20,925 bases of DNA from the IMG/VR virus record IMGVR_UViG_3300020020_000018, positions 1 to 20,925 of that record, one strand, 5' to 3'. A program made the translations under genes and the position numbers. Source of the stretch: a virus. The notes beneath the pieces were generated by a model. That model was not told where the DNA came from. It was given only the letters and a program-made list of their open reading frames with translations, and ran no database searches. This document shows, one piece after another, positions 1 to 20,925 of the stretch; position 1 is the first letter of the stretch, and each line of letters begins with the position of its first letter.

Positions 1-127
1 CTCACCCGAGCGCACCGATAGCAGCCGGTTGTGGACCTTGTAACTGTGGCCGGAGAGTATCTCGGCCAGCTGGCTGGTGATCGTGATCATGGTCAGGACC
101 AGTCAGCTACGGCGGCCGCCAGCATGG
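1..127. repeat. Terminal overlap, copy A. Identical to 20799-20925, so the contig closes into a 20,798-bp circle or a circularly permuted unit.
   Basis: Base-by-base comparison of the first and last 127 nt shows identity. The junction falls inside coding sequence (the N-terminus of the 374-aa tail gene and the C-terminus of the 93..929 gene). Confidence 0.95.
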
Positions 128-929: not shown

Positions 930-931
930 GG

Positions 932-8315: not shown

Positions 8316-10037
8316 TTCGTTCCTTCCTGAGTCTGCCTCTGCCAGGACAGCCGAGACACGTGCTGAATCAAACGCCGGGTCAGGCGTAAGACTGATTTCG
8401 GCCAGGTCGTTTCCCTGGCCGGAGTGGTGGACATCGCCCACCAGTGAGAAACGGGCGTCAGACCGGAGCCCGATGGAGAGGCCGTCATAGACGCCGTCAG
8501 CTGCCAGCATCAGCGCACGGTCACCCTCTGGGCCGCGTGCGATCTGGAACGTGACATAGAGGCCGTCCGGCCGATCATCCAGGATCGTGGCCTTACCCAC
8601 AGCCTGAGAACGATCATGCTGGATGTGGAGCTTGATACGCGACGGATCAGCCGGCAGGCGAAGAGAGCCGCGAGCGAACTGATACGTCCGGCCATTCTTC
8701 CGGGCTGTTACCCCATAGGGGACCGCCAGGCCGCTGATCGTGCGCCGCTCTTGATCAACAGAGAACGTGCTGAATACCGCGTCCGTGGCGAAGCTAAATC
8801 CTTGCGCGTCATCAGCGTCAAACGCAATGTTGTGACGCGCCGGCGGTCCACTCTGTTGCGTCTCGAGTGAGCTATCACGCAAAGAGTTTGCGTCACCGGA
8901 CTGTATTGCGGGCTGGGCTGGCATGGGGAACGTGGGCTGCGGGAGGCCCTCGCGGCGCGCGATCGCGTCACGGTCGAAGATTCCCAACTTGACCCCCAGT
9001 GCGTAAGCCTGGAACCGAGAAAGATCATCGGCCCTCAGGAACCCGTTAAAGTCCGCCTCTACGCGGTAGCCGCGCGGCGTGATGTCAGGCATAGAGAGCC
9101 GCTCAGCAATCGCGCTGACGTACATGCCCAGGGTGTCGTTGATCTTGTCAATGCGGCGCTGCTGGCCGTTCTGGTAGGTGCGGCTGGTGGTGCTGACGCC
9201 CAGGTCCTCTGGGTCCACACCCATGGCGGCCGCGATTTCGACCACTGCCTGTTTGCGGCCCTCCACCAGCTGGAGCTGGTTGGGGTCCCACTGGGTGCTG
9301 TGGTAATCCACCACCCCTGGCACGTAGGCGTCCACGCCGTTCTGGCGCGCCTGCTGCCAGTCATCCAGGAAGGTCTCAACGTCAGACTGGTCCGGGTCAG
9401 CCTCTGGGCGCGGGGTGAACCAGCCCTGTGGCCGGGGGCTGTCCGCGTAGCGATCGACAGCAGCGGCCAGCTTCAGCCAGGTGCGGATGGCCCGCGCGCC
9501 AGCACTGAGCACACCCTCAGTGGGAGACTCAAACACGACATAGTCAGCTGGTGGAACCTTGATCAACTTACCGTCGGGCATGGTGACGTGGAGGTAACCG
9601 TCCTGATCAACAGTGGCGCGGGGATCGACCCGCCAGACGTAGGTGGGGAACCGGTTAAAGTTCCGCTCCCGGGTCCACCAGTACGCCTTACCCTCAAACA
9701 GCAGGTCTTCCACGAGCTTGGTCATGGTGACCGATCGGGCACGGTTACGCTCTGGCTGGCTCAGCAGCGTTGAAACATGCTCCACGTTGTCTGTGTCCAG
9801 CAGCCGGAACGGTATGGTTCCGATTTCACCAGCGATCAGGTCGCGGCCTTTCTTGACCGCTGGGACCTGGATGGCCTCACGCCTGGAGACGGCGGCCACG
9901 GGTCCGATCGTGGAACTGTAGGACGGTATGCCGAAGATTTCACTAGGCATTGAGCCCGCGTCGATCTCAAATTGGGGACCACGGCTGTCTGGACGTTCAA
10001 ACCCGAGCCATTCAGCTACGCGCCACCAGAAGCTCAC
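7023..10037 (-). CDS. Portal - prohead protease (S78/HK97-type) - major capsid protein (HK97 fold) fusion ORF (1004 aa).
   Basis: This is one uninterrupted frame. Residues about 1-390 are portal-like (AIQVPAVKKGRDLIAGEIGTIPFRLL, QAVVEIAAAMGVDPEDLGV). Residues about 400-565 are protease-like (LHIQHDRSQAVGKA, DGLYVTFQI, DGLSIGL). Residues about 575-640 form a Pro/Ala-rich linker. Residues about 640-1004 are HK97-type capsid-like. The GTG start has only a weak SD. Confidence 0.85.
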   Translation of the reverse strand: MSFWWRVAEWLGFERPDSRGPQFEIDAGSMPSEIFGIPSYSSTIGPVAAVSRREAIQVPAVKKGRDLIAGEIGTIPFRLLDTDNVEHVSTLLSQPERNRARSVTMTKLVEDLLFEGKAYWWTRERNFNRFPTYVWRVDPRATVDQDGYLHVTMPDGKLIKVPPADYVVFESPTEGVLSAGARAIRTWLKLAAAVDRYADSPRPQGWFTPRPEADPDQSDVETFLDDWQQARQNGVDAYVPGVVDYHSTQWDPNQLQLVEGRKQAVVEIAAAMGVDPEDLGVSTTSRTYQNGQQRRIDKINDTLGMYVSAIAERLSMPDITPRGYRVEADFNGFLRADDLSRFQAYALGVKLGIFDRDAIARREGLPQPTFPMPAQPAIQSGDANSLRDSSLETQQSGPPARHNIAFDADDAQGFSFATDAVFSTFSVDQERRTISGLAVPYGVTARKNGRTYQFARGSLRLPADPSRIKLHIQHDRSQAVGKATILDDRPDGLYVTFQIARGPEGDRALMLAADGVYDGLSIGLRSDARFSLVGDVHHSGQGNDLAEISLTPDPAFDSARVSAVLAEADSGRNEMHPEGCHCQECALPNSTTRYVAPQPPAAPAAPAPQFDMGALVAALGQHFAPAQPPAPAPAGGGPEVINPADGAAGSGAQVAEPEPYRFDRSGALVAGTHDFARDLRDSFRGDAAAHERAMGFIQAHAFNAPATDMPDGPVQFAVQTGDVSSLVGVPVQRPDLYVDQRQFRYPLWEAVRKGTLDEITPIVVPKWSSHGGLVAAHTQDVNPTPGTFVATSETVTPGAVSGRVEITREVWDQGGPAASALIWAKMVQSYNEALEASVVTELDGEGGVTAITLTPGLTGQAQGAALGGHFADLQFVRGGFDFSTLALQQDLYKLLAGAIDTTNRPLFPIYGPTNANGTVAPRFAKLNIHGVDGFPEWALAAGGQVAPANSYLLDPASVFAVASVPQRLEFQYQVKSVELAIWGYRVVEVIDVPGIRKIIWDPVP
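8316..8328 (-). promoter_or_regulatory. Internal Shine-Dalgarno sequence (AGGAAGGA) plus spacer, upstream of the in-frame ATG at 8315.
   Basis: The plus strand reads tccttcct at 8321-8328, and cat at 8313-8315. Confidence 0.5.
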
Positions 10038-10047: not shown

Positions 10048-11694
10048 TTATGCGTGGGGTCGCGTTTTGGCGGTAATTAGTTGCAGACGCGCCGGAGGTT
10101 TGGCCGTTCTGGCCAGATTGGCGGCCCCGGCTGCGGCGTAGACCGCGTCAGCGTTGCCCATGCGGCGGGTGAAACGCCAGCCATCCCCCACCGGCAGGCG
10201 CCTGGAGCCGAGCGCGTGCGCGTTCAGCAGCGGGTCATTGCCGTGGATCAGCCCGCGCGCGAGCACCAGCTGAGCAAACCCCTGGCAAACGGCGGGGATT
10301 TCGGCCGACTTGATCTCCTCCATGCGCTTGAGCGTGCGGACATCCACCAGCACGGACGCAGCTGGCCCCCCGGGGAACCAGCACCCGCGCGCGGGCTGGT
10401 ACTGCTCCCAAATCTTGGGCAGGTCCAGCATGCACCTAGCAAGATCATTCCAGGCGCCCACGACGCCCAGCCGGACACGGCCGGAGTCAGTGAGCGCGGC
10501 GGCCGCCAGCGTGGCGTGGTCACCATCCTGGGACACGTCGAAGCAAAAGAACTTGTGAGGCATGGCCATAACGCCCGAGCCGGCAGGATCAGCACACGCG
10601 TTCCACGCCTGGGCTGAGATGGGGCTGTCGATTGCCTCCACCGTCTGGCAGAGGATCTCTGTGCGGAACACTGGCGGGGGATCGGTCCCCATGGCGGTGA
10701 GGATCGCGTCAGGGCTGATCGCGTACCCCAGTCCGGGGCATGCCTGAGCTATCTGGTCCCAGTCGTCCAGCTCGCAGCCCTCCACGCCGGACCACTCGAA
10801 CAGCCCTATGGACGGGTCTGTGCGGTTGATCCCAGACGCTCGCAGCTGGTTAAGCACCACGCTGTCAGCCTCACCGGCGTTCGAGATGGCCACCACCAGG
10901 CCCTGAGCTTTGGCGATGACAGTCTTAGACAGCGCGGACCAGGCCGTCCAGTCCTTCTGTTCGCGCAGCTCGTCCAAGATCATCAGGTCGACGGAGAGCC
11001 CCCGGCCAGCACCCTGCCGGGTGGCAGCGATCCGATACCGGGACCGGTTGAACATGCTCATGCTGGTGTCAGTGTTGCCGCGCTTGACCGAGTCCACCTG
11101 AACCCAGACCTTGTCATGATCTTGGGCCAGCTCCACCGTGGAGGACCAGCTGTTGCGTGCGATGTCCATTGACTGGGCCGCACCCAGCACCACAGAGCCT
11201 GGACGCTTGCACAGCATCCACAGCGTGAGTATCTGGAGAAGTCGAGTCTTGCCGGACTGGCGACCCACCAGCGTGAGCACCGTACGGAACCGGAACCGGC
11301 CCTGATCGTTCATCTCCAGCGCGTGGATCAGCCACCATTTCTGCCAGGGGTACAGCTCGATGCCCAGCTGTTCCTTTGCGAATCGGATTACCTCATACCC
11401 CTTGCTGTTGCCGACGTGGAGCCGCTGGAGTGGCGGGGTGAAGATGCGCGGTTCAGTGAGCCCTTTGATCCCCACTGGCGCAGGCCGGTGCGGAGTCGCG
11501 TCAAATAGCGGGTCCTGGTCTAGATCGGTCCCCCATAGCGCGGTCATGGCGCTGATTCTGACACCGCGCGCAAGCATCTTGCGCCAACGCGGCCTGAGGG
11601 CGTCTCTATTTTGCGCATGATCACAGGGGAGGGGGAACCACTCGGAAGGGGGTGGCGGGGTCCTCTGATTCTGGGAAAAAACCGCGAGACTCAC
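10048..11694 (-). CDS. terL: Terminase large subunit.
   Basis: Walker A-like VGRQSGKT, Walker B-like DLMILDE, a conserved LYPWQKW segment and a C-terminal nuclease-type region. The GTG start at 11694 is uncertain. In-frame ATGs occur about 40 and 50 codons downstream (MLARG..., MTALW...). Confidence 0.85.
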   Translation of the reverse strand: MSLAVFSQNQRTPPPPSEWFPLPCDHAQNRDALRPRWRKMLARGVRISAMTALWGTDLDQDPLFDATPHRPAPVGIKGLTEPRIFTPPLQRLHVGNSKGYEVIRFAKEQLGIELYPWQKWWLIHALEMNDQGRFRFRTVLTLVGRQSGKTRLLQILTLWMLCKRPGSVVLGAAQSMDIARNSWSSTVELAQDHDKVWVQVDSVKRGNTDTSMSMFNRSRYRIAATRQGAGRGLSVDLMILDELREQKDWTAWSALSKTVIAKAQGLVVAISNAGEADSVVLNQLRASGINRTDPSIGLFEWSGVEGCELDDWDQIAQACPGLGYAISPDAILTAMGTDPPPVFRTEILCQTVEAIDSPISAQAWNACADPAGSGVMAMPHKFFCFDVSQDGDHATLAAAALTDSGRVRLGVVGAWNDLARCMLDLPKIWEQYQPARGCWFPGGPAASVLVDVRTLKRMEEIKSAEIPAVCQGFAQLVLARGLIHGNDPLLNAHALGSRRLPVGDGWRFTRRMGNADAVYAAAGAANLARTAKPPARLQLITAKTRPHA

Positions 11695-12137: not shown

Positions 12138-12578
12138 TTACGTCAGCAGCAGGCCCAGGGCTACCACCCCCACCACGAGCATGATCAGTATCACCATGCC
12201 CACGGCGCGGGCTGCCGAGTAGCCCTCGCGCCGCTGCTCTGGCCAGTCTCGCGAGACCTCCACGCCCGCTGAGACCAGCTCCCCAGGGGCCATGATCCAG
12301 TCGCCATCCTCGCCGGAGTCATCCTGGACGATGTACGCGCCGCTGGCCTGGCCGAGCGCCAGCATCTCGGCCTCCTCTTCGTCGGTAAGCCCACGCCTTG
12401 CGTGCATCTCTTCCAGGTAATACAACCGATCAATGGTGACCTGGACCGCTGCAAAGAGGGTGTTGAACCGAAGCGCTATCTCCTCATCGCGCGGGCCCCG
12501 ATCGCGTGGGCTCATGTGGCTCAGCGGGTGCGTGACGGTCCAGTCCTGTCTCTGTGCCCAGCGTCGGAGCGCGCGCAT
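12138..12578 (-). CDS. Tail-anchored membrane protein (146 aa), function unknown.
   Basis: The ATG is coupled to the upstream stop (TGATG at 12576-12580). The only hydrophobic segment is C-terminal (VGMVILIMLVVGVVALGLLL). The middle of the protein is acidic. Confidence 0.6.
   Translation of the reverse strand: MRALRRWAQRQDWTVTHPLSHMSPRDRGPRDEEIALRFNTLFAAVQVTIDRLYYLEEMHARRGLTDEEEAEMLALGQASGAYIVQDDSGEDGDWIMAPGELVSAGVEVSRDWPEQRREGYSAARAVGMVILIMLVVGVVALGLLLT
12458..12487. repeat. 30-bp perfect direct repeat, copy 1 (inside the 146-aa gene).
   Basis: GGGTGTTGAACCGAAGCGCTATCTCCTCAT is identical to 17480-17509. On the minus strand it encodes EEIALRFNT in frame. Confidence 0.95.
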
Positions 12579-13267
12579 CAGTAGACCTTGTCCACTGCGT
12601 AGGTGGCCTCAGCGTGGGTGAAGCCCTCGCCGTACTTAGACTCCAGCTGGTCCAGCAGCTCAGCCTTGGAGAAGTGCCCGCTGTCCAGGTACGACTCAGC
12701 AGCCTCCACGGCCTCCGCTTTGTAATCGGCTTTGACGTGATCAATTGCGAACTGGGCGTCTTTCTTGGTGAAGCCCTCACCGTACTCAGATTTGAGCTGG
12801 TCCAGCAGCCCCTGCTTGGAGAAGTGCCCGCTGTCCAGGTACGACTCAGCAGCCTCCACGGCTTCCTTCTGGGCCCTGGTCAGCGTGGGCGTGGGCTTTG
12901 GCTCGGCCGGGGCCGCCGTGGCGCTGCCAGACGCCTCTGGTAAGGTGCTCGACCCCTGGCCACGGTCGGCATCGTCACCAGGCTCCGCTGAGTGATAGCC
13001 GGTGTCCTGAGTGAACGCCCCTGATTCCTGCTCAACCGGGGAGCTGCCTACGGCATAGCCCAAGGCACAGCCGATCACAAACACCACGATCAGGACCAGC
13101 CAGCCGAACCGCTTGTCCTTCACGCGGGGCCTCTTCGGCTGGGGGCCTGTCCACTGCTGCTGTTCGGTCAGGTGTTCCTGCCCTGCCGGTGGGTAGGGGT
13201 GCTCGAATCCAGGCGGCGGGTTAAACATGGGGTTGAACATGGGTTGATCTTGCGACGGGTTAGACAC
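12578..13267 (-). CDS. Membrane-anchored or lipoprotein with two Ltp-like repeats (superinfection-exclusion candidate, 229 aa).
   Basis: Two about 45-aa repeats (AVEAAESYLDSGHFSK..LLDQL.S.YGEGFT...A.[FY]A[IV]D.V) match the pattern of the Ltp 'host cell surface-exposed lipoprotein' repeat as I recall it. They are preceded by a hydrophobic segment ending in a lipobox-like VIGC, and by a Pro-rich 55-aa N-terminus. GTG start at 13267; alternative ATG at 13240. Confidence 0.7.
   Translation of the reverse strand: MSNPSQDQPMFNPMFNPPPGFEHPYPPAGQEHLTEQQQWTGPQPKRPRVKDKRFGWLVLIVVFVIGCALGYAVGSSPVEQESGAFTQDTGYHSAEPGDDADRGQGSSTLPEASGSATAAPAEPKPTPTLTRAQKEAVEAAESYLDSGHFSKQGLLDQLKSEYGEGFTKKDAQFAIDHVKADYKAEAVEAAESYLDSGHFSKAELLDQLESKYGEGFTHAEATYAVDKVY
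12665..12862. repeat. Tandem duplication with a 150-bp period. It includes 48-bp perfect copies at 12665-12712 and 12815-12862.
   Basis: CTTGGAGAAGTGCCCGCTGTCCAGGTACGACTCAGCAGCCTCCACGGC occurs twice. These copies correspond to the two Ltp-like protein repeats. Confidence 0.9.
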
Positions 13268-14459
13268 TGTCAGTGTCCCCTTTCTGGGTTAGGTCTAGCT
13301 CTGGGTCTGGCTCTGGAGTAGGTGGTTCCTCCGGCTCTGGCTCAGCTGGCTCTGGCTCAGGCTCCGGCTCTGGTAGTGGTTTCCACAGGTACCAAGTTTT
13401 AGTCCCGTGGGGCTCGTCCTCGCGTACGACCATGCCGCGCTCGTGGAGCTGACGCAGCATCAGTTGAACGCTTGACCGCTTCTCCCTGGTCCAGCCGAGA
13501 TTGCTCCCCACGCTTGAGGCGTAGAGGCCCCTGGGGAACTCGGCCAGCACTTGCAGGATGTCCTGCTGATCTTGGCTGATAGGCCCCAGCTGGTGGGACA
13601 TCATGCCACACAGGACGGCGGACTTATTGGGCGCGGTGACCAGGTCGAGTGTGATCGGTTCCTGTTCCTCCACGTCCTTCTGCTTTCTGCATTCCACCTT
13701 GACGATCGACGAGCGCGGTTCCTTTGCGGTCCTCATCACGGTGGTGGCAGCCCCTTCCAGGGCTGTGGAGCCGCGTAGGTTCTCACCCGAGCGCGGCTCA
13801 TGGTGCACGATCAGGACGCACGCTTTTGACGCCTGCCTGACGCGCTCCAGGGCGGCAACGAACAGTCCCATGTCGCGAGAGCTGTTCTCTTCCATGCCCT
13901 CAGTCACTCGGGCCTGAGTGTCTATGACGATCATGTCCGGTTTCTGCTCTGTGACGAGCCTCACAAATGGCTCAAGCGTCTCACTGTTGGGGGTGAGCTG
14001 AACAGCGATCGGCAGGAATATCAGGTCGCCGGCGAGACAGTTTCGCGCCCACTCCCAGGCCCTGACCCTCGCGGCCAGCCCGTGGGCCCCTTCCGCGATC
14101 ACGTACAGCACGCGGCCGCGCCTGGTGCGTTTGTTGTGCCAGAGCTGGCCAGCACTGACTGCACAGGCCAGGTCGACGGCCAGGAATGTCTTGCCGCCGC
14201 CTGGCCTGCCCCCGAGCCAGGCCAGGCTGTTGCTGAACAGCCAGTCCTCCACGATCGGCTCAGGGGGCTTGAGAGCCTCCAGCTGATCGATGCGGATGAG
14301 GGCCAGGTCCAGCCTGTCATAAAGACGATCAGACTGGCCCTGGAGGTCCTCAGGCCCGAGCGCGCGCATTCCTAGATGTGCCCTGCTCGCCGCGGACAGG
14401 TGGCGGCCCACAGCCGCCCCCGGGATCGGAGCGTCTGGTACAGGACCAGCTCTTGCCAC
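13260..14459 (-). CDS. AAA_25 / RepA-DnaB-like replicative helicase-ATPase with a C-terminal winged-helix-like domain and a PE-repeat tail.
   Basis: Walker A GRPGGGKT and Walker B MIVIDT. The C-terminal segment (QDILQVLAEFPRG...LMLRQLHERGMVVRE) resembles a wHTH. The tail is PEPEPEPEPAEPEPEEPPTPEPDPE. The start is uncertain (alternative MRALGPEDL at residue 31). Confidence 0.75.
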   Translation of the reverse strand: MARAGPVPDAPIPGAAVGRHLSAASRAHLGMRALGPEDLQGQSDRLYDRLDLALIRIDQLEALKPPEPIVEDWLFSNSLAWLGGRPGGGKTFLAVDLACAVSAGQLWHNKRTRRGRVLYVIAEGAHGLAARVRAWEWARNCLAGDLIFLPIAVQLTPNSETLEPFVRLVTEQKPDMIVIDTQARVTEGMEENSSRDMGLFVAALERVRQASKACVLIVHHEPRSGENLRGSTALEGAATTVMRTAKEPRSSIVKVECRKQKDVEEQEPITLDLVTAPNKSAVLCGMMSHQLGPISQDQQDILQVLAEFPRGLYASSVGSNLGWTREKRSSVQLMLRQLHERGMVVREDEPHGTKTWYLWKPLPEPEPEPEPAEPEPEEPPTPEPDPELDLTQKGDTDSV

Positions 14460-14532: not shown

Positions 14533-15480
14533 TCACCGGGTGCGCCTTGCCCTGGCGGCGCTCTGGATGGTCCTGACAGCCTCAGCGCGCGACAGCCCTA
14601 TCTGGATGGCCGCGTTCTCCAACGCGCCGGGGTCCAGGCCTTTCTCATGGGCTCTGGACGCTGCCCAGAACAGTGAGTGGTTACGCTCACCCTCCTGGGC
14701 GGCCAGCACGAACCGGACTAGCCCGTCCAGGTCCTTACCGTCACCCCGGCCCTGGTAGTCGGGGGTCCGCGGCCGCTGATCCTCTGGCAGCAGCAGCGCG
14801 AGGGCCCCGTACCAGTCGAACGTGGCACCGAGACGCCCACCCTGGGTGAACTCCCAGTGATACATGAGGCCGCTCGCCAGGACCGATGGGGCACCCACGA
14901 TGTAGCCGCCGCGGCCGCGGAAGTCCAGGCCCGTCCTGGCTGAGGCGTGGTTGCCGTCTCCTCCAGCTGCAAACAGGATGTGTTTGCCGCCGCTGGGGGT
15001 GGCCTGTGAGGCCCAGCCGCCGCTGAGGTAGCCCTGTCGGGTGATGGTGTCCAGCGATGACTCTCCGGCCTTGCCGTCTTTTGTGTCGACGTCGAGCGCA
15101 TCGAACACGTGACCTGTGGCCAGCCCTATGTTGAACTCTGGCCGGACTTTCCACCAGCCGCGCACCGTGGCCAGGTCTGTGCTGGCGTCCAGGACCCCGT
15201 TGCTGGTGGCTGGCAGCTTGGTCTGGGCCTGGAGTGGGTGCACGGGCACGCCGGCGATGGCGTACGCAGCGGCCGCCTCCATCAGTGACAGGCTGTTGGT
15301 CTCGATCAGCCTTGACAGCGTGATGGTTCGGGCCCGGTGCTGGATCGAGTAGTGGCAGGCCGCGCCGAACGTGCCGCCGGGGCCAGCCGGTTCCTTGACA
15401 CAGCGTGGGCAGCGGCCCTCCGGGATACCAGAGTCAGGGTGGGGGTCCGGGTCGAAATGCTCGGGTGCTAGCTCATTCAT
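14533..15480 (-). CDS. Bifunctional DNA primase/polymerase (prim-pol) with a PriCT-like C-terminus.
   Basis: VPVHPL...NGVLDAS, catalytic-type FDALDVDTKDG, SGGKHILF, and a C-terminal RNHSLFWAASRAHEKGLD...LSRAEAVRTIQSA. Confidence 0.85.
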   Translation of the reverse strand: MNELAPEHFDPDPHPDSGIPEGRCPRCVKEPAGPGGTFGAACHYSIQHRARTITLSRLIETNSLSLMEAAAAYAIAGVPVHPLQAQTKLPATSNGVLDASTDLATVRGWWKVRPEFNIGLATGHVFDALDVDTKDGKAGESSLDTITRQGYLSGGWASQATPSGGKHILFAAGGDGNHASARTGLDFRGRGGYIVGAPSVLASGLMYHWEFTQGGRLGATFDWYGALALLLPEDQRPRTPDYQGRGDGKDLDGLVRFVLAAQEGERNHSLFWAASRAHEKGLDPGALENAAIQIGLSRAEAVRTIQSAARARRTR

Positions 15481-16370: not shown

Positions 16371-17564
16371 TCAGATTTTTGGCGTGTCGACCAGGGGCTG
16401 GGTGATCGCGACAGAGGCGCGGACCAGGTTGTGGTCAGAGGCGTGGGGCACATATTCAGGCTGCCCAGTGATCACCAGGGTGCCTGTGTACGGGTCAGCC
16501 ACCTTGCTGGTCAGAACGTCGTCAATCCAGATTCCGTCACGCTTGGTGGCGGTCCAGCCGTTGCGGCTGTTCCGGCTGTCGCCTTCCATTTCAGCGTCTG
16601 TGAGCCGGGAGCGGAGGTCACGGTAGCCAGCAGCGGCGAGGACCTGGCGTACAGGATCGAGCACGCCGCTGGGGCCCTGGGCACTGTTGAAGTCACCCAT
16701 GATCAGCACACGCTGATTGTCGGGCAGGGCCGAGAGGACTAGCGCGATCTCTTTTGCCTGGGCCAGTCTCAGCGCGGCCTCACCCGGCATGTTGACGGCC
16801 AGGTGGGTGGAGATGAACCAGGCGTCACCACCAGTGGCCACAGACTGGAGCCGGACACACGTCAGCGGCCGCGTCGACGGGAACCCTGGCAGTGCCGTGC
16901 TCTTGAGCTTGAACTCACGGTGATCAATAGCCACCCACTTGTCAGCCCGCCAGATGATTTTGGATGTGCCCGAGCCCCAGAAATTCCAGTTAGGGCCGAG
17001 CCCGTGGGTGAGGTCAGCGGCCAGCGCAGCATTGCACTCTTGGACACCCAGCACGCTGGGGGCCACATCGTTGATCACCCGGACCAGCTGGGGGAGCCGC
17101 CTGGACCACAGCCGCTCGGGGTGGAGCAAGTCGTCAGCTGACTTGTGGCGAATGTTGAACGACGCCGCTCGGACCTTGGTGGTGGTGACGGCTGGGGGCA
17201 CGATCGGGGCCTCTGTTCCGTAGCTGATATGGATATGGTCGTTGTGTGGGTCGCTGCCGTTATAGGTGCGGACTCCCTCAGCGGCCCGGGCCACGGACCA
17301 GATGCGGCGCCTGGTGATGATGTACGTGGCTCCCAGACGCTTAGCGTTGAGCTTGAACCAGGCCAGCATCTCGTCGTGGTGCGCTGCGCTGTTGTCGTAC
17401 AGCCAGAAGTCAGCCGCCAGGTCCCCAGACATGTCGTGTCCCGGGTCGCCGTCCGCGTGGCCCCGGTACGTACCTATCTGGGTGTTGAACCGAAGCGCTA
17501 TCTCCTCATTTGCCTTGACCACCCAGGACGGCCACGGCCGATAGTTGTCGATGTACAGTCCCAT
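16371..17564 (-). CDS. Endolysin candidate: N-terminal Zn-peptidase-like domain fused to an endonuclease/exonuclease/phosphatase (EEP) domain.
   Basis: It lies directly downstream of the holin (stop 17567, ATG 17564). N-terminus: GHADGD..GHDMSGDLAADFW...PHNDHIHISYG, LAS/M15-like and tentative. C-terminus has ordered EEP motifs: SFNIR, GVQECN, ISTHL, IMGDFN, WIDDV, ASDHNLV. Confidence 0.75.
   Translation of the reverse strand: MGLYIDNYRPWPSWVVKANEEIALRFNTQIGTYRGHADGDPGHDMSGDLAADFWLYDNSAAHHDEMLAWFKLNAKRLGATYIITRRRIWSVARAAEGVRTYNGSDPHNDHIHISYGTEAPIVPPAVTTTKVRAASFNIRHKSADDLLHPERLWSRRLPQLVRVINDVAPSVLGVQECNAALAADLTHGLGPNWNFWGSGTSKIIWRADKWVAIDHREFKLKSTALPGFPSTRPLTCVRLQSVATGGDAWFISTHLAVNMPGEAALRLAQAKEIALVLSALPDNQRVLIMGDFNSAQGPSGVLDPVRQVLAAAGYRDLRSRLTDAEMEGDSRNSRNGWTATKRDGIWIDDVLTSKVADPYTGTLVITGQPEYVPHASDHNLVRASVAITQPLVDTPKI
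17480..17509. repeat. 30-bp perfect direct repeat, copy 2 (inside the endolysin gene).
   Basis: Identical to 12458-12487. It encodes EEIALRFNT (endolysin residues 20-28) in the same reading frame. Confidence 0.95.
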
Positions 17565-17566: not shown

Positions 17567-17947
17567 TCAGTTACCTGCCTCTCTGTTGATCGCGGCCGCG
17601 ATGGCGCGGGTGACCGCTTCCTCTATGCGGAGGTCCAGGTCACCATTGAGACCATTGGCGGCCACCTTGGCTGCGGTGGCCGCCGTGTCCGCTTTGCCTG
17701 CCGCGTCTGCCACCTGGTGGCTTATGTGCTGGTTCTCTTCGCTGGATTTCTTAGTGCGGAACCAGAGCACCAGGGCCGCGCCCAGGGTGATTAGCGATGG
17801 AATCAGCGGACGGATGTAGACCTCAGCCTGGTCTGGATACCGGGTGATCAGATAGACCAGCATCAGCCCAGACGCGAGAAAACAGATGGTGGCACATATC
17901 AGGGCCACTGGCCCCACCGTGTGGCCTGACTTGGTTTGCAACGGCAC
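17567..17947 (-). CDS. Holin candidate (2 TM helices, 126 aa).
   Basis: I prefer the GTG at 17947, which has SD AGGAGA 5 nt upstream and avoids overlapping the HNH gene. TM segments are VGPVALICATICFLASGLMLVYLI and LIPSLITLGAALVLWF, followed by a charged C-terminal tail. It lies immediately upstream of the endolysin. Confidence 0.6.
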   Translation of the reverse strand: MPLQTKSGHTVGPVALICATICFLASGLMLVYLITRYPDQAEVYIRPLIPSLITLGAALVLWFRTKKSSEENQHISHQVADAAGKADTAATAAKVAANGLNGDLDLRIEEAVTRAIAAAINREAGN

Positions 17948-17964: not shown

Positions 17965-18225
17965 TCACCACGCCCCCCGGGGCTCTGGATCGGATCGCTT
18001 CGCGGACTGGTTGCAAGGTCCACAGGACGCTCTGAGGTTATCTGGGTGATCGGTCCCACCCTGGGATTTCAGCACGATGTGATCACACTGGCTGGCGACT
18101 GTGAGGCACCGCGGGCCCCGTATCTGACAGCGGTACTGGTCCCGCTCGAGTACTAGGCGGCGCACTTTCTTCCACGCCGTGGTGGAGCCGCCGGCCCACG
18201 CCTTAGACATGGTGACGCTCAGCAC
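17965..18225 (-). CDS. HNH endonuclease.
   Basis: RCQIRGPRC...CDHIVLKSQGGTDHPDNLRASCGPCN. The likely start is the ATG at 18210 (MSKAWAGG...). Confidence 0.85.
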   Translation of the reverse strand: MLSVTMSKAWAGGSTTAWKKVRRLVLERDQYRCQIRGPRCLTVASQCDHIVLKSQGGTDHPDNLRASCGPCNQSAKRSDPEPRGAW

Positions 18226-18424: not shown

Positions 18425-18997
18425 TCAGGCCGCGCGGTAATGGAGGTTGGCTGTGAACACGTCGTTAACGGCCAGGACGGTGGGGTCCGTGGAGTCAACA
18501 CGGCGGATGGACTGGAAGGGAGTCCCGGCCGCTGGCGCTGATCCGAAGCTGATCCTTAGGCCACCGGGGTCGTTCTGTACGACCGGGCCACCGAAGTGAG
18601 AGACGGGCGCCGTGGAGTCATCGCGGATGGCCCAGGTCCCTAACACTGTCGTGATGGCCTCTGTCCCACTGCCCCACACGTACGCGGGCACCGGCAGAAT
18701 CAGCGTGAACAGGCCAGCCTGGACAGATGGTGCGGTGCCGAGCCTGATACGGAACTGGGCGTCGACCATCTTTCCGTTGTCTTTGCGCCAGAAACCTTCA
18801 TTTAGGCCGCCAGCACCCACGCTGAGGATGCCGCCGTCAGATGGCGTGTTCCAGATAGGTGTCCAGCTGTTCCAGGCCCGCTCTGCGGTGCGCGCGGCCT
18901 GGATGCTGGCGGCCATCTCCGCGAAAGCATCCCACCAGTTGTTCATGGGGTAGTTGCTGTCCGGGTATGAGATGCCGTCTGGTGATGTGGTGCCCAT
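18425..18997 (-). CDS. Minor tail protein / receptor-binding candidate (190 aa).
   Basis: I prefer the ATG at 18997 (TGATG coupling with the upstream stop, SD AAGGA) over the TTG at 19015. The N-terminal GISYPDSN motif resembles actinophage tail-fibre N-termini as I recall them. Confidence 0.55.
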   Translation of the reverse strand: MGTTSPDGISYPDSNYPMNNWWDAFAEMAASIQAARTAERAWNSWTPIWNTPSDGGILSVGAGGLNEGFWRKDNGKMVDAQFRIRLGTAPSVQAGLFTLILPVPAYVWGSGTEAITTVLGTWAIRDDSTAPVSHFGGPVVQNDPGGLRISFGSAPAAGTPFQSIRRVDSTDPTVLAVNDVFTANLHYRAA

Positions 18998-19767
18998 CAG
19001 CTGATCCTTTGCCAATCGAGAATGAGTGCCATCGAACTGGAGTATTTTGAGCGGCCAGCCAGTCTGACGTGGGGCTGGCTATCGTCAGCCACCCAGATGG
19101 ACAGGCCCCCGCAGACGCCGTCCACCAGGTCCTGGCCAAACTGGGTCGGCATGGTGAACGTGTCTGTTTCGTTCACGCTCAGGTTAGGGCCGAGCATGCC
19201 TGAGCCGGTGCGTGTGGGGGCTCCGGCTGGCCGTGTCGTCTCACTCACGCGGTAGAACTCTGGTCGGCGTGCGCTGGAGTCGCCACCGGCTACGCGCTTG
19301 AGCTTGACGCGGCAGAGCGTCACCACCGCACCAGCCAGTGAGCGTGGGGCTGAGCCGTAGAACGCACAGCCGGTGTAAAGCATGGCGTCCCACTCACTCT
19401 GGAGTAGGTCGTCAGTGTCAAACCTCCACTTATCGTCACCCGGGCCAGCCTTATAGGACCTGGTCTCAACGGGGAACAGGGTGAGCTGGCCGGTGCGTGA
19501 GAAACCCTCAGGCTGTGGCGGGTAGTCGATGTCTGGTGGTGCGCTGGGTGCGCTGGCGTGCATCCTGGCAAGGATCAGGATTTCCCCACCCACTCTGACG
19601 CCTGCCACGATGTCACCGGCCGCTGTGGTGAGCCCCCGAGCGGCGCGACAGGTGACCACGGCCCCCATGATCTTGACGCTGACTGTACTGGTGCCGCTGA
19701 CTGTGCCCTGGGCTATGCCCTTGACCACGCCCGTGGATGGTGCGACTCTCAGCCCTGACCATTTCAC
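18997..19767 (-). CDS. Minor tail protein (256 aa).
   Basis: The GTG start overlaps the upstream stop (GTGA at 19764-19767). Assigned by position in the tail block. Confidence 0.5.
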   Translation of the reverse strand: MKWSGLRVAPSTGVVKGIAQGTVSGTSTVSVKIMGAVVTCRAARGLTTAAGDIVAGVRVGGEILILARMHASAPSAPPDIDYPPQPEGFSRTGQLTLFPVETRSYKAGPGDDKWRFDTDDLLQSEWDAMLYTGCAFYGSAPRSLAGAVVTLCRVKLKRVAGGDSSARRPEFYRVSETTRPAGAPTRTGSGMLGPNLSVNETDTFTMPTQFGQDLVDGVCGGLSIWVADDSQPHVRLAGRSKYSSSMALILDWQRIS

Positions 19768-20888
19768 GATCCCACCAGCCTCACCGTGAGGGCCTCAGCG
19801 CCGCCACCAGCCTGGTGGGGCAGCGTGTAGCCGGTGACCCGGCCCAGGGCACCAGCCAGCTGGAGACGGGCACTGGTGACCGCCACAGCATCGCCCAGCC
19901 TCAGGGCTGGGTGGGGCAGTATCTCGATCGATACTGACCGATTGTTATCGGCCCTCAGGTTCCGTTTCCTGGTCGCGGCCGCCGCCGCCACCATGGCCTG
20001 GGTGGTCATCAGCGGAGACTCGTACCCCACGGGAACCAGGTAGGGGCTGAACGGGCCGCCGTACCGGTAGGGGCTGGTCAGGTCTGTGTCATAGCTGGTG
20101 GCCACAATCTCCTGGCCTGCCAGGCCGCCAGCGGTGTCCGGGTACGAGCCGCGGGCCACCACAGCATTGAACTGGCCGTCTCGGGTAAGGCCAGTGGTGA
20201 ACCGCTGAGCGTTCAGCTTGTCGGAGACAGCCAGGTCCGCGCTGGTGGGGTCGTCTGGCACGGGCGTGACTCTCAGGACGCCGTCGACGGTAACCTCAGC
20301 CTGAGCTGGCCAAGCGTCCAGGACGGCCGCCACGTCATCCAGCCGGTTGTCTGACCAGCTGGTCCCAGCGGGCACGGTGCGATCAGCTGGTGCGGCTGTG
20401 AGGTCCACCGTGAGCCCTGGCTCGACCAGAGCTCTGATCACTGATCCCATGGTCGCGCCAGCCTTGGGCTGGTATTCCGCGACCAGCTCAGCCTCATTCA
20501 CCAGGTACAGCAGGCCAGCACACTGAACACTGACCGTGTCGCCGGAGTCGTCTGGGTCGACGCTGTGGATCAGGAATTGGCCACGGGTCAACCACTCGAC
20601 TTCCTCACCCACCAGTGAGACGCCCACCTGGGCCACGATCCGCTGGCCCCAGATGCCCAGCGGATGGTCATAGGAACTGGGCACCCAGGAGACGCCACGG
20701 TCCAGGATCGGAACACGAAAGGTCAGCTGCTCGGGGACCCTCAGGCTGGCGTCACCTTCCTCCACCACGTCCACGCCTGGAATGTCGTCAGCCAGCAGCT
20801 CACCCGAGCGCACCGATAGCAGCCGGTTGTGGACCTTGTAACTGTGGCCGGAGAGTATCTCGGCCAGCTGGCTGGTGATCGTGATCAT
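19764..20888 (-). CDS. Minor tail protein (Tal / baseplate-hub-like by position, 374 aa).
   Basis: The ATG at 20888 corresponds to position 90 of the circle, 2 nt after the stop of the 93..929 gene. It follows the Dit-like gene. Confidence 0.55.
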   Translation of the reverse strand: MITITSQLAEILSGHSYKVHNRLLSVRSGELLADDIPGVDVVEEGDASLRVPEQLTFRVPILDRGVSWVPSSYDHPLGIWGQRIVAQVGVSLVGEEVEWLTRGQFLIHSVDPDDSGDTVSVQCAGLLYLVNEAELVAEYQPKAGATMGSVIRALVEPGLTVDLTAAPADRTVPAGTSWSDNRLDDVAAVLDAWPAQAEVTVDGVLRVTPVPDDPTSADLAVSDKLNAQRFTTGLTRDGQFNAVVARGSYPDTAGGLAGQEIVATSYDTDLTSPYRYGGPFSPYLVPVGYESPLMTTQAMVAAAAATRKRNLRADNNRSVSIEILPHPALRLGDAVAVTSARLQLAGALGRVTGYTLPHQAGGGAEALTVRLVGS

Positions 20889-20925
20889 GGTCAGGACCAG
20901 TCAGCTACGGCGGCCGCCAGCATGG
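20799..20925. repeat. Terminal overlap, copy B (identical to 1-127).
   Basis: Same comparison as copy A. The 127-nt length is what an assembler k-mer overlap would leave, but that origin is inference. Confidence 0.95.

What the first reader, a model, noticed from the sequence alone, without database searches (positions are those of the whole stretch)
16371..17564. Endolysin candidate carries an EEP (DNase I-fold phosphodiesterase) domain
The gene immediately after the holin encodes 397 aa. The N-terminal 118 aa or so have His/Asp and HxH spacing suggestive of a LAS-type Zn peptidase (tentative).

The C-terminal 265 aa or so carry the full ordered motif set of the endonuclease/exonuclease/phosphatase family: N in SFNIR, E in GVQE, H in STHL, D/N in GDFN, and SDH in ASDHNLV. 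EEP enzymes cleave phosphodiester bonds; examples are nucleases, sphingomyelinase/phospholipase C and inositol phosphatases.

In a lysis cassette this suggests a second envelope-directed activity. Possible targets are the phosphodiester linkage units that attach teichoic acid or arabinogalactan-type polymers to peptidoglycan, or membrane phospholipids. The logic is analogous to mycobacteriophage LysB, although LysB is an esterase of a different fold. Alternatively the domain could be a nuclease released at lysis.

I do not recall this domain pairing being a standard endolysin architecture.
Basis: partly seen in the sequence, partly recalled or inferred. Interest (0 to 1): 0.65.

Follow-up and report, generated by a model that had tools for sequence, protein, structure and literature searches.

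The report
Phage endolysin with added phosphoesterase domain
The only cell-wall-lysing enzyme of this small uncultured actinobacterial phage joins a zinc peptidase that cuts peptidoglycan to an intact phosphoester-cleaving (EEP) domain, and this pairing recurs in many uncultured phage lysins, which suggests a cell-wall attack chemistry that I found no paper describing.

Summary

- **C-terminal domain.** Residues ~131-397 are a catalytically complete EEP domain. Pfam PF03372 scores E=1e-8 over the full profile. The AlphaFold model has pLDDT 93. The best solved match is BT3783, a Mg-dependent mannose-6-phosphatase acting on yeast cell-wall mannan (Foldseek E=4e-20).
- **N-terminal domain.** Residues 1-118 are a VldE-type (PF26571) LAS zinc L,D-endopeptidase. 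The top five PDB fold matches are all VldE.
- **Context.** The window is a complete circular ~20.8 kb phage genome. This is its only recognisable peptidoglycan hydrolase. It starts 2 nt after a two-transmembrane holin-like gene.
- **Recurrence.** Related EEP domains with all catalytic residues intact are fused elsewhere to VldE (26 clusters, several domain orders), an amidase-like endolysin domain, GH25, M23, LysM and PG_binding_1. Four different fusion types sit next to membrane-protein (holin-like) genes.
- **What is not settled.** The substrate is not established. A cell-wall phosphoglycan or teichoic-type target is favoured by association. A nuclease role is not excluded. The nearest cellular homologues are signal-less chromosomal proteins.
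- **Novelty.** No homologue was found in 50,697 GenBank phage records, and no paper was found. I rate it a new variant of a known kind.

The parts
16371..17564 (-). Two-domain endolysin gene: 397 aa, 43.8 kDa, ATG start, stop codon at 16371-16373.
   Evidence: ORF list and translation. There is no hydrophobic segment, so no signal peptide or signal-anchor. It is the only peptidoglycan-hydrolase-like gene in the complete genome.
17211..17564 (-). N-terminal VldE-type (PF26571) LAS-fold zinc peptidase domain, aa 1-118. The motif H107-N-D109-H110-I-H112 corresponds to VldE H370-x-D372-H373-x-H375, and D52 corresponds to VldE D308.
   Evidence: Precomputed PF26571 hits on orthologues. PDB profile hit to VldE, E=0.007. 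AlphaFold model pLDDT 86.8. Foldseek top five matches are all VldE. Residue roles are taken from PMC11667670.
17175..17210 (-). Pro/Thr-rich interdomain linker, aa 119-130 (APIVPPAVTTTK).
   Evidence: Read directly from the sequence. pLDDT is low at the end of the N-domain model. The segment TTTKVRAAS aligns with the N-termini (MTTSARCLS and similar) of stand-alone EEP proteins.
16374..17174 (-). C-terminal EEP (endonuclease/exonuclease/phosphatase, PF03372) domain, aa 131-397. Catalytic set: N137, E176, H254, D291, N293, D348, D377, H378.
   Evidence: Pfam E=1e-8 over the full-length profile. Catalytic columns conserved. AlphaFold pLDDT 93.3. Foldseek best matches are 3MPR/4C1R (BT3783) and 3G6S, followed by TDP2 and nocturnin.
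17567..17947 (-). Holin candidate. Probably 126 aa from the GTG at 17947, which has a GGAG upstream; the longest ORF runs to 18016. Two hydrophobic segments are followed by a charged C-terminal tail. Its TGA stop lies 2 nt before the endolysin ATG.
   Evidence: Hydropathy and start-codon scan. DNA read. No Pfam or PHROG family matches. A 106-aa protein with a similar C-terminal tail occupies the same position in the syntenic relatives L004-L006.
17574..17583 (-). Purine-rich Shine-Dalgarno-like stretch (GAGAGGCAGG) inside the 3' end of the holin gene, 9-13 nt upstream of the endolysin ATG.
   Evidence: DNA read. That this is a ribosome-binding site is an inference.

Best explanation
This is the holin-dependent endolysin of a complete, uncultured ~20.8 kb tailed phage. 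The host is probably in the Propionibacteriaceae. The enzyme has two catalytic modules.

- The protein has no export signal, so it would accumulate in the cytoplasm. It would reach the wall when the adjacent two-transmembrane holin-like protein opens the membrane (inferred).
- The N-terminal VldE-type LAS zinc peptidase then cuts peptidoglycan stem peptides. By homology with VldE this is the L-Ala-D-iGlu/iGln bond (inferred).
- The C-terminal EEP domain is a catalytically intact metal-dependent phosphoesterase, presumably Mg2+-dependent as in other EEP enzymes. It most likely hydrolyses a phosphoester bond in a cell-wall-associated glycopolymer. Candidates are a teichoic-acid-like or sugar-phosphate polymer, or the phosphodiester linkage unit on MurNAc.
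- Cutting that bond would strip or loosen the polymers that shield peptidoglycan, and so complete wall breakdown (inferred from association, not shown).
For: Domain identities are shown:
- EEP.
- VldE: with VldE biochemistry from PMC11667670.

Lysis role:
- The gene starts 2 nt after a two-TM gene.
- It has no signal sequence.
- It is the sole peptidoglycan-hydrolase-like gene in a genome shown to be complete by a 127-bp terminal overlap.

An envelope-directed role for the EEP module rests on what related EEP domains are fused to:
- VldE in 26 clusters (50% identity level) that carry the motifs of both domains. Domain orders seen are VldE-EEP, EEP-VldE and EEP-EEP-VldE.
- An amidase-like endolysin domain, phrog_17214 (P0005, P0288, L001 442 aa).
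- GH25 muramidase (P0318).
- Peptidase_M23 (P0287, P0309, P0353).
- LysM (P0135, P0151) and PG_binding_1 (P0273, P0308).
- P0273 already carries a canonical wall-binding module between VldE and EEP. That argues the EEP there is an enzyme and not the binding module.

Further points:
- Wherever the alignment covers them, the catalytic residues N/E/H/D/N and the Asp-His pair are kept in all 22 proteins checked. The only exception at a catalytic position is one D348 to S change.
- Four different fusion types sit beside membrane-protein genes in phage contigs: the window, L001, L029 and L030.
- Stand-alone copies lie inside arrays of paralogous ORFs just downstream of the tape-measure gene, presumably tail-fibre genes, in L001 and L007. 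This fits action on the cell surface.
- The nearest solved structure is BT3783 (3MPR/4C1R), a Mg-dependent phosphatase acting on phosphorylated yeast cell-wall mannan.

Logic (inference): a non-specific DNase or phospholipase accumulating in the cytoplasm before holin triggering would damage phage DNA or the membrane. A wall-polymer substrate is reached only after triggering.
Against: - No result identifies the substrate.
- After BT3783 and 3G6S, the next structural neighbours are the DNA-end phosphodiesterase TDP2 and the NADPH phosphatase nocturnin.
- The closest homologues found in cellular genome assemblies (41-55% identity over the best segment) are stand-alone proteins without signal peptides. 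They lie in Propionibacteriaceae and other Actinomycetota MAG contigs. The two neighbourhoods annotated (L010/L011 and L019) hold ordinary metabolic genes. That suggests a cytoplasmic ancestral substrate.
- The basic pI of the domain (8.6) suits any polyanion, DNA included.
- The count of VldE+EEP co-occurrences comes from a search with a two-domain query, which favours proteins that carry both.
- Identity to BT3783 is only 16-18%.
- The holin assignment rests on topology only.
- The first zinc-binding histidine of the peptidase cannot be placed. The loop aa 31-50 has pLDDT 57-62, and H43 is not conserved in P0003, P0010 or P0012.
Confidence: 0.5

Rival explanations
1. The EEP domain is a nuclease. 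Released with the endolysin at lysis, it would degrade host chromosomal or extracellular DNA/RNA. That would lower lysate viscosity, free virions from a biofilm matrix or recycle nucleotides. The peptidase alone would do the wall lysis.
For: - EEP is a classic nuclease fold.
- TDP2 structures fill most of ranks 8-50 of the Foldseek list.
- There is a weak NCBIfam hit to the ExeM/NucH extracellular endonuclease family, E=0.0013.
- The domain is basic, pI 8.6.
- The closest cellular homologues lack signal peptides and so are presumably cytoplasmic.
Against: - The ExeM/NucH hit scores 17.7 bits against a 300-bit cut-off and covers 60 residues.
- No DNase I, ExoIII/APE1 or CdtB structure is in the top 50 Foldseek matches. 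The best matches are the glycan phosphatase BT3783 and its uncharacterised Bacteroides relatives.
- The recurrent partners are peptidoglycan hydrolases and the peptidoglycan binders LysM and PG_binding_1, which place the domain on the wall.
- An unspecific nuclease accumulating in the cytoplasm during late infection would threaten phage DNA (inference).
- Stand-alone copies sit in presumed tail-fibre arrays.
Confidence: 0.2
2. The EEP domain is a sphingomyelinase/phospholipase-C-like lipid phosphodiesterase. It would attack membrane phospholipids or the phosphatidylinositol anchors of actinobacterial lipoglycans at lysis. That would play a role comparable to the membrane- or outer-layer-disrupting accessory lysis proteins (LysB, spanins).
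For: - The EEP superfamily includes bacterial sphingomyelinases and phospholipases C (established knowledge).
- Actinobacterial envelopes carry PI-anchored lipoglycans (established knowledge).
- The gene is in the lysis cassette.
Against: - No sphingomyelinase structure appears among the top 50 Foldseek matches.
- No hydrophobic membrane-insertion segment was detected.
- A cytoplasmically accumulating phospholipase would attack the inner leaflet before holin triggering (inference).
- The fusion partners bind peptidoglycan, not membranes.
Confidence: 0.1
3. The EEP domain serves mainly as the cell-wall-binding module of the endolysin. It would recognise a phosphate-containing wall polymer through its active-site cleft with little or no turnover, filling the C-terminal slot that binding domains normally occupy.
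For: - It sits in the C-terminal position typical of endolysin binding domains.
- Close VldE-domain homologues (68-77% identity) carry unrelated C-terminal modules instead. One type is a ~150-aa module predicted here only from its sequence to be beta-rich (P0010-P0013). The other is short tails (P0009, P0015-P0026).
Against: - The catalytic residues are conserved in all 22 fused and stand-alone proteins examined, apart from one D348 to S change, across lineages down to ~31% identity.
- P0273 and P0308 carry PG_binding_1 in addition to EEP. P0135 and P0151 carry LysM in addition to EEP.
- Some proteins carry two EEP domains.
Confidence: 0.1
4. The fusion is functionally incidental. A host-derived cytoplasmic phosphatase or phosphodiesterase gene would have been captured and fused to the lysin. 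It would act on a soluble cytoplasmic metabolite or nucleotide during infection, unrelated to lysis.
For: - Chromosomal stand-alone homologues occur in Propionibacteriaceae MAGs, and the neighbourhoods annotated hold metabolic genes.
- Nocturnin (an NADPH phosphatase) and a sugar phosphatase are among the structural neighbours.
Against: - An incidental fusion would not recur with five or more unrelated wall-hydrolase or wall-binding partners in several domain orders.
- The architecture is conserved at 74-93% identity in independent samples and in syntenic genomes.
Confidence: 0.05

Closest known systems
VldE (Spr1875) of Streptococcus pneumoniae; Pfam PF26571; the 'MT3' motif of the mycobacteriophage TM4 tape-measure protein
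   Same: - LAS-fold zinc peptidase domain of about 115 aa.
- It shares the extended HxDHxH motif (window HNDHIH, VldE HYDHVH) and the zinc-binding Asp in the A-x-D-F motif.
- VldE structures are the five best PDB fold matches.
- VldE is a proven peptidoglycan L,D-endopeptidase (PMC11667670).
   Different: - VldE is a cellular, septum-targeted remodelling enzyme with an N-terminal LysM module.
- Here the domain is N-terminal in a phage endolysin and is followed by an EEP domain.
- Identity is only 24-28%.
- The loop carrying the first zinc-binding His differs and is poorly modelled.
BT3783 (PDB 3MPR/4C1R) of Bacteroides thetaiotaomicron, with the related uncharacterised EEP protein BVU_0621 (3G6S)
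   Same: - Best structural matches of the EEP domain: E=4e-20 to 5e-18, TM 0.75-0.80.
- Best PDB sequence-profile matches.
- All share the W-x2-R motif after the first strand.
- BT3783 is a Mg-dependent phosphatase acting on phosphorylated cell-wall mannan (PMC4978465).
   Different: - Identity is 16-22%.
- The BT3783 construct crystallised was the mature protein, residues 27-314, consistent with an exported protein of a polysaccharide-utilisation locus.
- It is a phosphomonoesterase and has no link to peptidoglycan hydrolases or phages.
- Substrate-binding residues were not compared.
Modular two-catalytic-domain endolysins of Gram-positive and actinobacterial phages (for example mycobacteriophage LysA, staphylococcal CHAP+amidase lysins)
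   Same: - Holin-adjacent gene.
- No signal peptide.
- An N-terminal peptidase followed by a linker and a second module.
- Modules are exchanged between related phages.
   Different: In my knowledge of the published domain surveys, the second catalytic modules of known endolysins all act on peptidoglycan bonds (amidase, muramidase, glucosaminidase, peptidase). An EEP phosphoesterase module is not among them. No paper in the searched library links the two.
Phage-borne teichoic-acid phosphodiesterases of other folds: GDPD domains in staphylococcal and enterococcal phage tail or baseplate proteins, and the metallophosphatase ORF22 of Thermobifida phage P1312
   Same: They are precedents for phages carrying phosphodiesterases proposed or shown to cut wall teichoic acids alongside peptidoglycan hydrolases (PMC10194240, PMC4569894). 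The position in or next to the tail module resembles the stand-alone EEP genes in L001 and L007.
   Different: - The folds are unrelated (TIM-barrel GDPD; calcineurin-like metallophosphatase).
- They are virion-associated proteins, not parts of the endolysin.
Mycobacteriophage LysB (mycolylarabinogalactan esterase)
   Same: Only the logic is shared: a second lysis enzyme that detaches a non-peptidoglycan envelope layer.
   Different: - LysB is a separate gene with a cutinase-like alpha/beta-hydrolase fold and carboxylesterase chemistry.
- Its target exists only in mycolic-acid-containing bacteria (established knowledge).
- No sequence or fold relation was seen here.

Membership tests
EEP superfamily (Pfam PF03372, DNase I-like fold) | Significant match to the family profile over its full length. 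| tested here: met
   PF03372 E=1e-8, 35.6 bits (cut-off 24.5), aa 134-378, profile positions 1-225 of 225.
EEP superfamily (Pfam PF03372, DNase I-like fold) | Ordered catalytic set: Asn (motif I), metal-binding Glu (II), His/Tyr (III), Asp-x-Asn (IV), Asp (V), Asp-His (VI). | tested here: met
   N137, E176, H254, D291/N293, D348 and D377-H378 are present. They are invariant or at least 90% conserved in 75 homologues. In the 22 fused or stand-alone relatives checked they are kept wherever the alignment covers them, apart from one D348 to S change.
EEP superfamily (Pfam PF03372, DNase I-like fold) | Four-layer alpha/beta sandwich fold. | tested here: met
   AlphaFold2 pLDDT 93.3, pTM 0.92. There are 212 PDB matches at E<=0.001, and all of the top 50 are EEP enzymes, with TM up to 0.80.
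EEP superfamily (Pfam PF03372, DNase I-like fold) | Mg2+-dependent phosphoester hydrolysis. | not testable with these tools
   Requires an enzyme assay.
BT3783-like glycan-phosphate hydrolases (EEP subgroup containing 3MPR/4C1R and 3G6S) | Closest structural and sequence relationship within the EEP fold. | tested here: met
   Ranks 1-6 of the Foldseek PDB search. Best three PDB profile hits. Shared W-x2-R motif.
BT3783-like glycan-phosphate hydrolases (EEP subgroup containing 3MPR/4C1R and 3G6S) | Sugar-phosphate substrate specificity (substrate-binding residues, activity). | tested here: inconclusive
   Identity is only 16-22%. No activity data exist.
DNase I / ExoIII-APE1 / CdtB nucleases (EEP subgroups) | Closest structural relationship to these nucleases. 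| tested here: not met
   None appears in the top 50 PDB matches. The only nuclease-family sequence hit, ExeM/NucH, scores 17.7 bits against a 300-bit cut-off. Nuclease activity itself was not tested.
Bacterial sphingomyelinase / phospholipase C (EEP subgroup) | Closest structural relationship, and a hydrophobic membrane-interacting element. | tested here: not met
   No sphingomyelinase is in the top 50 PDB matches. The protein has no hydrophobic segment.
VldE family (Pfam PF26571; LAS fold, peptidase clan MD) | Profile-level sequence similarity. | tested here: met
   Precomputed PF26571 hits on the orthologues P0001-P0003 and on more than 100 N-domain homologues. The profile hits VldE chains at E=0.007. 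The local Pfam copy gave no hit.
VldE family (Pfam PF26571; LAS fold, peptidase clan MD) | LAS alpha/beta fold. | tested here: met
   Model pLDDT 86.8. The five best PDB matches are VldE structures at probability 1.00. The next matches (LdcB, Sonic hedgehog N-domain) are weak.
VldE family (Pfam PF26571; LAS fold, peptidase clan MD) | C-terminal HxDHxH motif (VldE H370, D372, H373, H375) and the zinc-binding Asp (D308). | tested here: met
   H107-N-D109-H110-I-H112 and D52. H107, H110, H112 and D52 are invariant in 70 homologues. Residue roles are from PMC11667670.
VldE family (Pfam PF26571; LAS fold, peptidase clan MD) | First zinc-binding His, 7 residues before the Asp (VldE H301). | tested here: inconclusive
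   H43 lies 9 residues before D52 but is absent from P0003, P0010 and P0012, which have H38 instead. H36 is conserved in the close clade. The loop aa 31-50 is modelled at pLDDT 57-62.
VldE family (Pfam PF26571; LAS fold, peptidase clan MD) | L,D-endopeptidase activity on cross-linked peptidoglycan. | not testable with these tools
   Requires muropeptide analysis.
Canonical holin-dependent phage endolysin | Peptidoglycan-hydrolase domain, no secretion signal, gene adjacent to a holin. | tested here: met
   VldE domain. No hydrophobic segment. The ATG lies 2 nt after the stop of a two-TM protein gene. The holin identity rests on topology only; no family hit was found.
Canonical holin-dependent phage endolysin | It is the lysin of the phage, that is, no other candidate exists. 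| tested here: met
   The genome is complete (127-bp terminal overlap). None of the other 29 minus-strand ORFs scanned matches a lysin family in Pfam, and none of the 17 of them also scanned against PHROGs does. This is limited to what those libraries can detect.
LysB-type mycolylarabinogalactan esterase | Cutinase-like alpha/beta-hydrolase fold with a Ser-Asp-His triad. | tested here: not met
   The domain has an EEP fold. The relation is one of functional logic only.

The most novel reading that the evidence does not exclude
The EEP module is a 'wall-polymer release' enzyme. It would hydrolyse the phosphodiester that LCP ligases make between MurNAc-6-OH of peptidoglycan and the linkage unit of teichoic-acid-like or other wall glycopolymers. 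Alternatively it would cut sugar-1-phosphate bonds within such polymers. As far as I know, no enzyme has been assigned the linkage-unit activity. Phages of soil Actinomycetota would then deploy it widely, both in endolysins and in large multi-domain lysins, paired with the VldE peptidase.
Probability: 0.15. Interest if true: 0.85.

Novelty: new variant of a known kind. Interest (0 to 1): 0.6.

Why it matters
In my knowledge of the published surveys, endolysin catalytic modules are peptidoglycan-bond hydrolases, combined from a limited and well-catalogued set of domains. A catalytically intact phosphoesterase module recurs with VldE, amidase-like, GH25 and M23 lysin domains and with LysM and PG_binding_1. 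That would add a new chemistry to the phage lysis toolkit.

It also points to phosphate-linked wall polymers as a barrier that phages of soil actinobacteria must remove.

If the substrate is a teichoic-type polymer or its linkage unit, the domain could be useful in two ways. It could serve as a reagent for dissecting wall-polymer attachment. It could also serve as an accessory module for engineered lysins.

The question is directly testable with recombinant protein. The finding also gives a phage-lysin context to the VldE family, whose biochemistry was first described in 2024.

Tried and rejected
1. **GenBank phages.** tblastn of the whole protein (E<=1e-5) and of the EEP domain alone (E<=5) against 50,697 GenBank phage records gave no match and only chance-level hits, respectively. 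The N-domain gave only weak hits in Arthrobacter and uncultured phages. No cultured relative could therefore be used.
2. **Local Pfam copy.** It did not detect the N-domain even at E<=10. This was resolved through precomputed PF26571 hits, a PDB profile search and Foldseek.
3. **NCBIfam ExeM/NucH hit.** I rejected it as evidence for a nuclease: 17.7 bits against a 300-bit cut-off.
4. **LysM+EEP proteins P0135 and P0151.** Their contigs (L002, L003) have giant 1,550-aa ORFs and sparse gene calls, so the origin is unclear. I used them only for domain architecture, not as phage context.
5. **Are the MAG-encoded EEP homologues prophage genes?** tblastn with the L001 and L007 structural proteins found none nearby. 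The L019 neighbours are metabolic genes. I therefore treat them as cellular, and this counts against the envelope hypothesis.
6. **An 'unfused' state.** I hoped the 265-aa gene directly after the VldE gene in L036 would be an EEP. It is not; no EEP motifs are present.
7. **Literature.** Searches for endolysin with EEP, PF03372 or Exo_endo_phos found nothing relevant.
8. **Zinc ligands.** Model coordinates are not returned by the tools and the loop is of low confidence, so the first His could not be placed.
Full report
**1. Observation.** The ORF at 16371..17564 is real. It starts with ATG, encodes 397 aa and lies on the minus strand. Pfam PF03372 (Exo_endo_phos) matches aa 134-378 over the entire profile (positions 1-225 of 225) at E=1e-8, which is 35.6 bits against a 24.5-bit gathering score. 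In a 75-sequence alignment reaching down to 22% identity, E176, H254, D291, N293 and D348 are invariant. N137, S376, D377 and H378 are at least 90% conserved. An AlphaFold2 model of aa 125-397 is confident (pLDDT 93.3, pTM 0.92). It has 212 PDB matches at E<=0.001, and all of the top 50 are EEP enzymes.

**2. Genome context.** The first 127 bases of the window are identical to the last 127. The window is therefore a circularly assembled, complete genome of about 20,798 bp. All plausible genes are on the minus strand. In order they are:
- large terminase (10048..11694);
- one 1,004-aa ORF combining portal, S78 protease and major-capsid similarity (7023..10037);
- a Laminin_G_3-domain protein;
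- small head-tail genes;
- tape-measure protein (1468..3192);
- tail proteins running across the junction (93..1007, 19764..20888, 18997..19767, 18425..19015);
- an HNH endonuclease (17965..18225);
- a two-transmembrane protein (17567..17947/18016);
- the 397-aa protein;
- small ORFs;
- Prim-Pol (14533..15480) and an AAA_25 helicase (13260..14459);
- an Ltp-type superinfection-exclusion lipoprotein (12578..13267).

I scanned 29 other minus-strand ORFs against Pfam, and 17 of them also against PHROGs. None hits a peptidoglycan-hydrolase family. At that sensitivity the 397-aa protein is the phage's only lysin.

Its ATG lies 2 nt after the TGA of the upstream gene and is preceded by a purine-rich stretch. 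The upstream protein has two hydrophobic segments (aa 33-59 and 66-86 of the longest ORF) and a charged C-terminal tail. Its probable GTG start at 17947 sits behind a GGAG. It matches no holin family, so 'holin' is a topology-based inference. The 397-aa protein has no hydrophobic segment at all, as expected for a canonical holin-dependent endolysin.

**3. N-terminal domain.** The local Pfam copy finds nothing. However, the orthologues and more than a hundred homologues of aa 1-120 carry a precomputed hit to PF26571, whose short name is VldE. A profile of the domain hits the VldE chains in the PDB (9FLH, E=0.007). The AlphaFold model (pLDDT 86.8) has VldE structures as its five best PDB matches (E=2e-5 to 3e-4, probability 1.00, 24-28% identity). 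Weak matches to other LAS enzymes follow.

VldE (Spr1875) of S. pneumoniae is an experimentally characterised LAS-fold zinc L,D-endopeptidase. It cleaves the L-Ala-D-iGlu(n) bond of the acceptor strand in cross-linked peptidoglycan. Zn-1 is held by H301, D308 and H375, and H370, D372 and H373 are essential. The domain corresponds to the 'MT3' motif of the TM4 tape-measure protein (PMC11667670). The window protein has H107-N-D109-H110-I-H112, which matches H370-x-D372-H373-x-H375, and D52, which matches D308. H107, H110, H112 and D52 are invariant in 70 homologues.

The equivalent of H301 cannot be fixed. H43 is 9 residues before D52 but is replaced in P0003, P0010 and P0012, which instead have H38. 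The loop is modelled with low confidence.

Many family members are fused to PG_binding_1 or PG_binding_3, and P0255's VldE-like N-terminus hits the endolysin family phrog_16241.

**4. Placing the EEP domain.**
- The best solved matches are 3MPR (four chains, ranks 1-4) and 4C1R (rank 6). Both are BT3783 of Bacteroides thetaiotaomicron (E=4e-20 to 5e-18, TM 0.75-0.80).
- 3G6S (BVU_0621, rank 5) and 3L1W (Enterococcus faecalis, rank 7) follow.
- Then comes a long run of TDP2 and nocturnin structures.
- No DNase I, ExoIII/APE1, CdtB or sphingomyelinase is in the top 50.
- The same three Bacteroides proteins are the best sequence-profile hits in the PDB. They share a W-x2-R motif after the first strand (W153 and R156 here).
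- BT3783 is a Mg-dependent phosphatase that removes phosphate from phosphorylated yeast cell-wall mannan and high-mannose glycans (PMC4978465).
- Among predicted viral structures, most matches are giant-virus EEPs. A few come from phages: a Citrobacter phage CR8 'tail fiber' protein, phage CrRp3 and Streptomyces phage Yosif.

So the domain groups with a glycan-phosphate hydrolase and not with the classic nucleases or sphingomyelinases. At 16-22% identity this is a lead, not a specificity assignment.

**5. Distribution and fusion partners.** The exact architecture at more than 70% identity exists in only three 90%-identity clusters (P0001-P0003). These come from syntenic ~21 kb uncultured phage contigs, in which a 106-aa protein with a similar C-terminal tail precedes the gene.

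About 60 clusters form a distinct EEP clade at roughly 33-72% identity. Most are stand-alone proteins of 255-265 aa. Beyond them there is a sharp drop to generic cellular EEPs at 23-29% identity.

An exhaustive phmmer search of 1.84 billion representatives with the full-length protein returned 724 hits. Of these, 26 show both the HxxHxH signature (mostly HxDHVH) and at least one EEP motif (GDxN or SDH). The orders seen are VldE-EEP, EEP-VldE and EEP-EEP-VldE, with lengths from 379 to 1,500 aa. This count is biased by the two-domain query.

Other partners of related EEP domains are:
- an amidase-like endolysin domain, phrog_17214 (P0005, P0288 and the 442-aa protein of L001);
- GH25 muramidase (P0318);
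- Peptidase_M23 (P0287, P0309, P0353);
- LysM (P0135, P0151);
- PG_binding_1 (P0273, which is VldE + PG_binding_1 + EEP, and P0308).

Wherever the alignment covers them, the catalytic residues are retained in all 22 proteins checked. The one exception at a catalytic position is a D348 to S change in P0294.

Four different fusion types lie next to membrane-protein genes in phage-like contigs:
- the window itself;
- L001, where three TM proteins are followed by amidase-EEP and then an M23 gene;
- L029, where three TM proteins and one further ORF are followed by GH25-EEP and then a two-TM protein;
- L030, where VldE-PGB-EEP is followed by a three-TM protein and then a one-TM protein.

Stand-alone copies in L001 and L007 sit just downstream of the tape-measure gene, inside arrays of paralogous ORFs (N-termini 'MAW[ST]TP[LI]TA') that I take to be tail-fibre genes. 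L001 thus has one EEP in its presumed tail module and another in its endolysin.

**6. Counter-evidence.** The only homologues found in 185,579 species-representative genomes are in MAGs of Propionibacteriaceae and unclassified Actinomycetota (41-55% identity over the best segment). These are stand-alone ORFs without signal peptides. They have no phage structural genes nearby. The neighbourhoods annotated hold ordinary metabolic genes. The ancestral cellular protein is therefore probably cytoplasmic, and its substrate need not be a wall polymer. These hits, the 67%-identical N-domain homologue from a Propionibacteriaceae MAG (P0028) and the 64% G+C content suggest the host lineage but do not prove it.

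**7. Mechanism.**
- Shown: a two-domain protein with an intact VldE-type peptidase and an intact EEP active site. It is positioned as the endolysin of a complete phage genome.
- Inferred: holin-dependent release, and cleavage of the L-Ala-D-iGlu(n) bond by homology with VldE.
- Hypothesis (confidence about 0.5): the EEP module hydrolyses a phosphoester in a wall-associated glycopolymer. This rests on (a) the recurrent fusions to wall hydrolases and wall binders, including proteins that already carry a binding module, (b) the tail-region copies, (c) the BT3783 relationship, and (d) the argument that an enzyme accumulating in the cytoplasm before holin triggering should have an extracytoplasmic substrate.
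- Rivals: nuclease (0.2), lipid phosphodiesterase (0.1), non-catalytic wall-binding module (0.1), incidental fusion (0.05). Their evidence is listed in the Rival explanations section.

**8. Comparison and novelty.** The gene is a member of the EEP superfamily and of the VldE family, with all testable defining features met except the position of the first zinc-binding histidine. It behaves as a canonical modular endolysin. It is not a LysB homologue, because the fold and chemistry differ. It is not a GDPD or metallophosphatase teichoic-acid phosphodiesterase of the kind already noted in phage tail modules (PMC10194240, PMC4569894); those are functional precedents only. No GenBank phage record holds a homologue, and no paper in the searched library connects endolysins with EEP domains. 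I therefore rate it a new variant of a known kind: a familiar endolysin framework carrying an accessory catalytic module that I could not find described. That module is widespread in uncultured phages of soil Actinomycetota, so this is not a one-off.

**9. Limits.**
- All functional statements about the EEP substrate are inferential.
- Pocket-level structural comparison was not possible.
- The co-occurrence census is biased by the two-domain query.
- The contexts of several fusion proteins are short metagenomic contigs.

Noticed in passing
window 1-127 and 20799-20925: There is an exact 127-bp direct repeat at the two ends of the window. The window is therefore a circularly assembled, complete genome of about 20,798 bp, with every plausible gene on the minus strand.
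   Followed up: yes
window 7023-10037 (-): A single 1,004-aa ORF combines three similarities:
- portal (PF04860, aa 60-363);
- prohead protease S78 (aa 428-568);
- major head protein (phrog_2263, aa 413-998).

A portal-protease-capsid fusion in one reading frame is unusual. Relatives in L004 and L005 also have an ORF of at least 739-800 aa that starts just downstream of their 517-aa ORF at the terminase position.
   Followed up: partly
window 17965-18225 (-): An 86-aa HNH endonuclease gene sits between the tail genes and the holin candidate. It overlaps the 5' end of the longest holin ORF. No gene is called in the corresponding 377-bp gap of the syntenic relatives L004-L006, so it looks like a recent insertion.
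   Followed up: partly
window 12578-13267 (-): A 229-aa membrane-anchored protein has two Lipoprotein_Ltp repeats (PF07553, E=1e-40; phrog_4980 superinfection exclusion). No integrase was recognised anywhere in the genome.
   Followed up: no
window 5590-6603 (-): A 337-aa protein with a Laminin_G_3 / concanavalin-A-like lectin domain (E=1.4e-10) lies in the head module. It could be a capsid decoration or glycan-binding protein.
   Followed up: no
L001 10001-10798 and 12556-13884: One 28.8 kb phage contig carries two EEP genes. One is a stand-alone 265-aa copy among paralogous ORFs (presumed tail-fibre genes) downstream of the tape-measure gene. The other is fused to an amidase-like endolysin domain (442 aa). 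The second follows three transmembrane-protein genes and precedes a separate M23 peptidase gene.
   Followed up: partly
L031 7001-11503; L033 7001-10942: Giant proteins of 1,500 and 1,313 aa combine Peptidase_M23, EEP (two EEP domains in the 1,500-aa protein) and a C-terminal VldE domain. They are encoded next to DNA polymerase III alpha, SSB and HNH genes, on contigs of up to 496 kb. The source could be a jumbo phage or another large element.
   Followed up: partly
L012-L020 and L023 (L021, L022 partial or disrupted); L010, L011: Stand-alone EEP genes (41-55% identical to the phage domain over the best segment) lie in Propionibacteriaceae and other Actinomycetota MAG contigs. The full-length ones lack signal peptides. 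The L019 and L010/L011 neighbours are SDR, alpha/beta-hydrolase, aminotransferase and amylase genes. Their cellular role is unknown.
   Followed up: partly
L002 4938-5957; L003 3290-4285: LysM+EEP proteins (339 and 331 aa) lie on contigs with giant ORFs of about 1,550 aa. In L002 the next ORF, of at least 1,396 aa, is LysM-rich. Gene calls are sparse, so the type of organism or element is unclear.
   Followed up: no
P0009-P0013 and P0015-P0026; L035 3417-4256; L036 1142-1750: Close VldE-domain homologues of the window endolysin (63-83% identical N-domains) carry quite different C-termini in place of EEP. One type is a ~150-aa module (predicted here only from its sequence to be beta-rich). The other is a ~80-aa tail (predicted from sequence to be helical). 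This shows module swapping at that position.
   Followed up: partly
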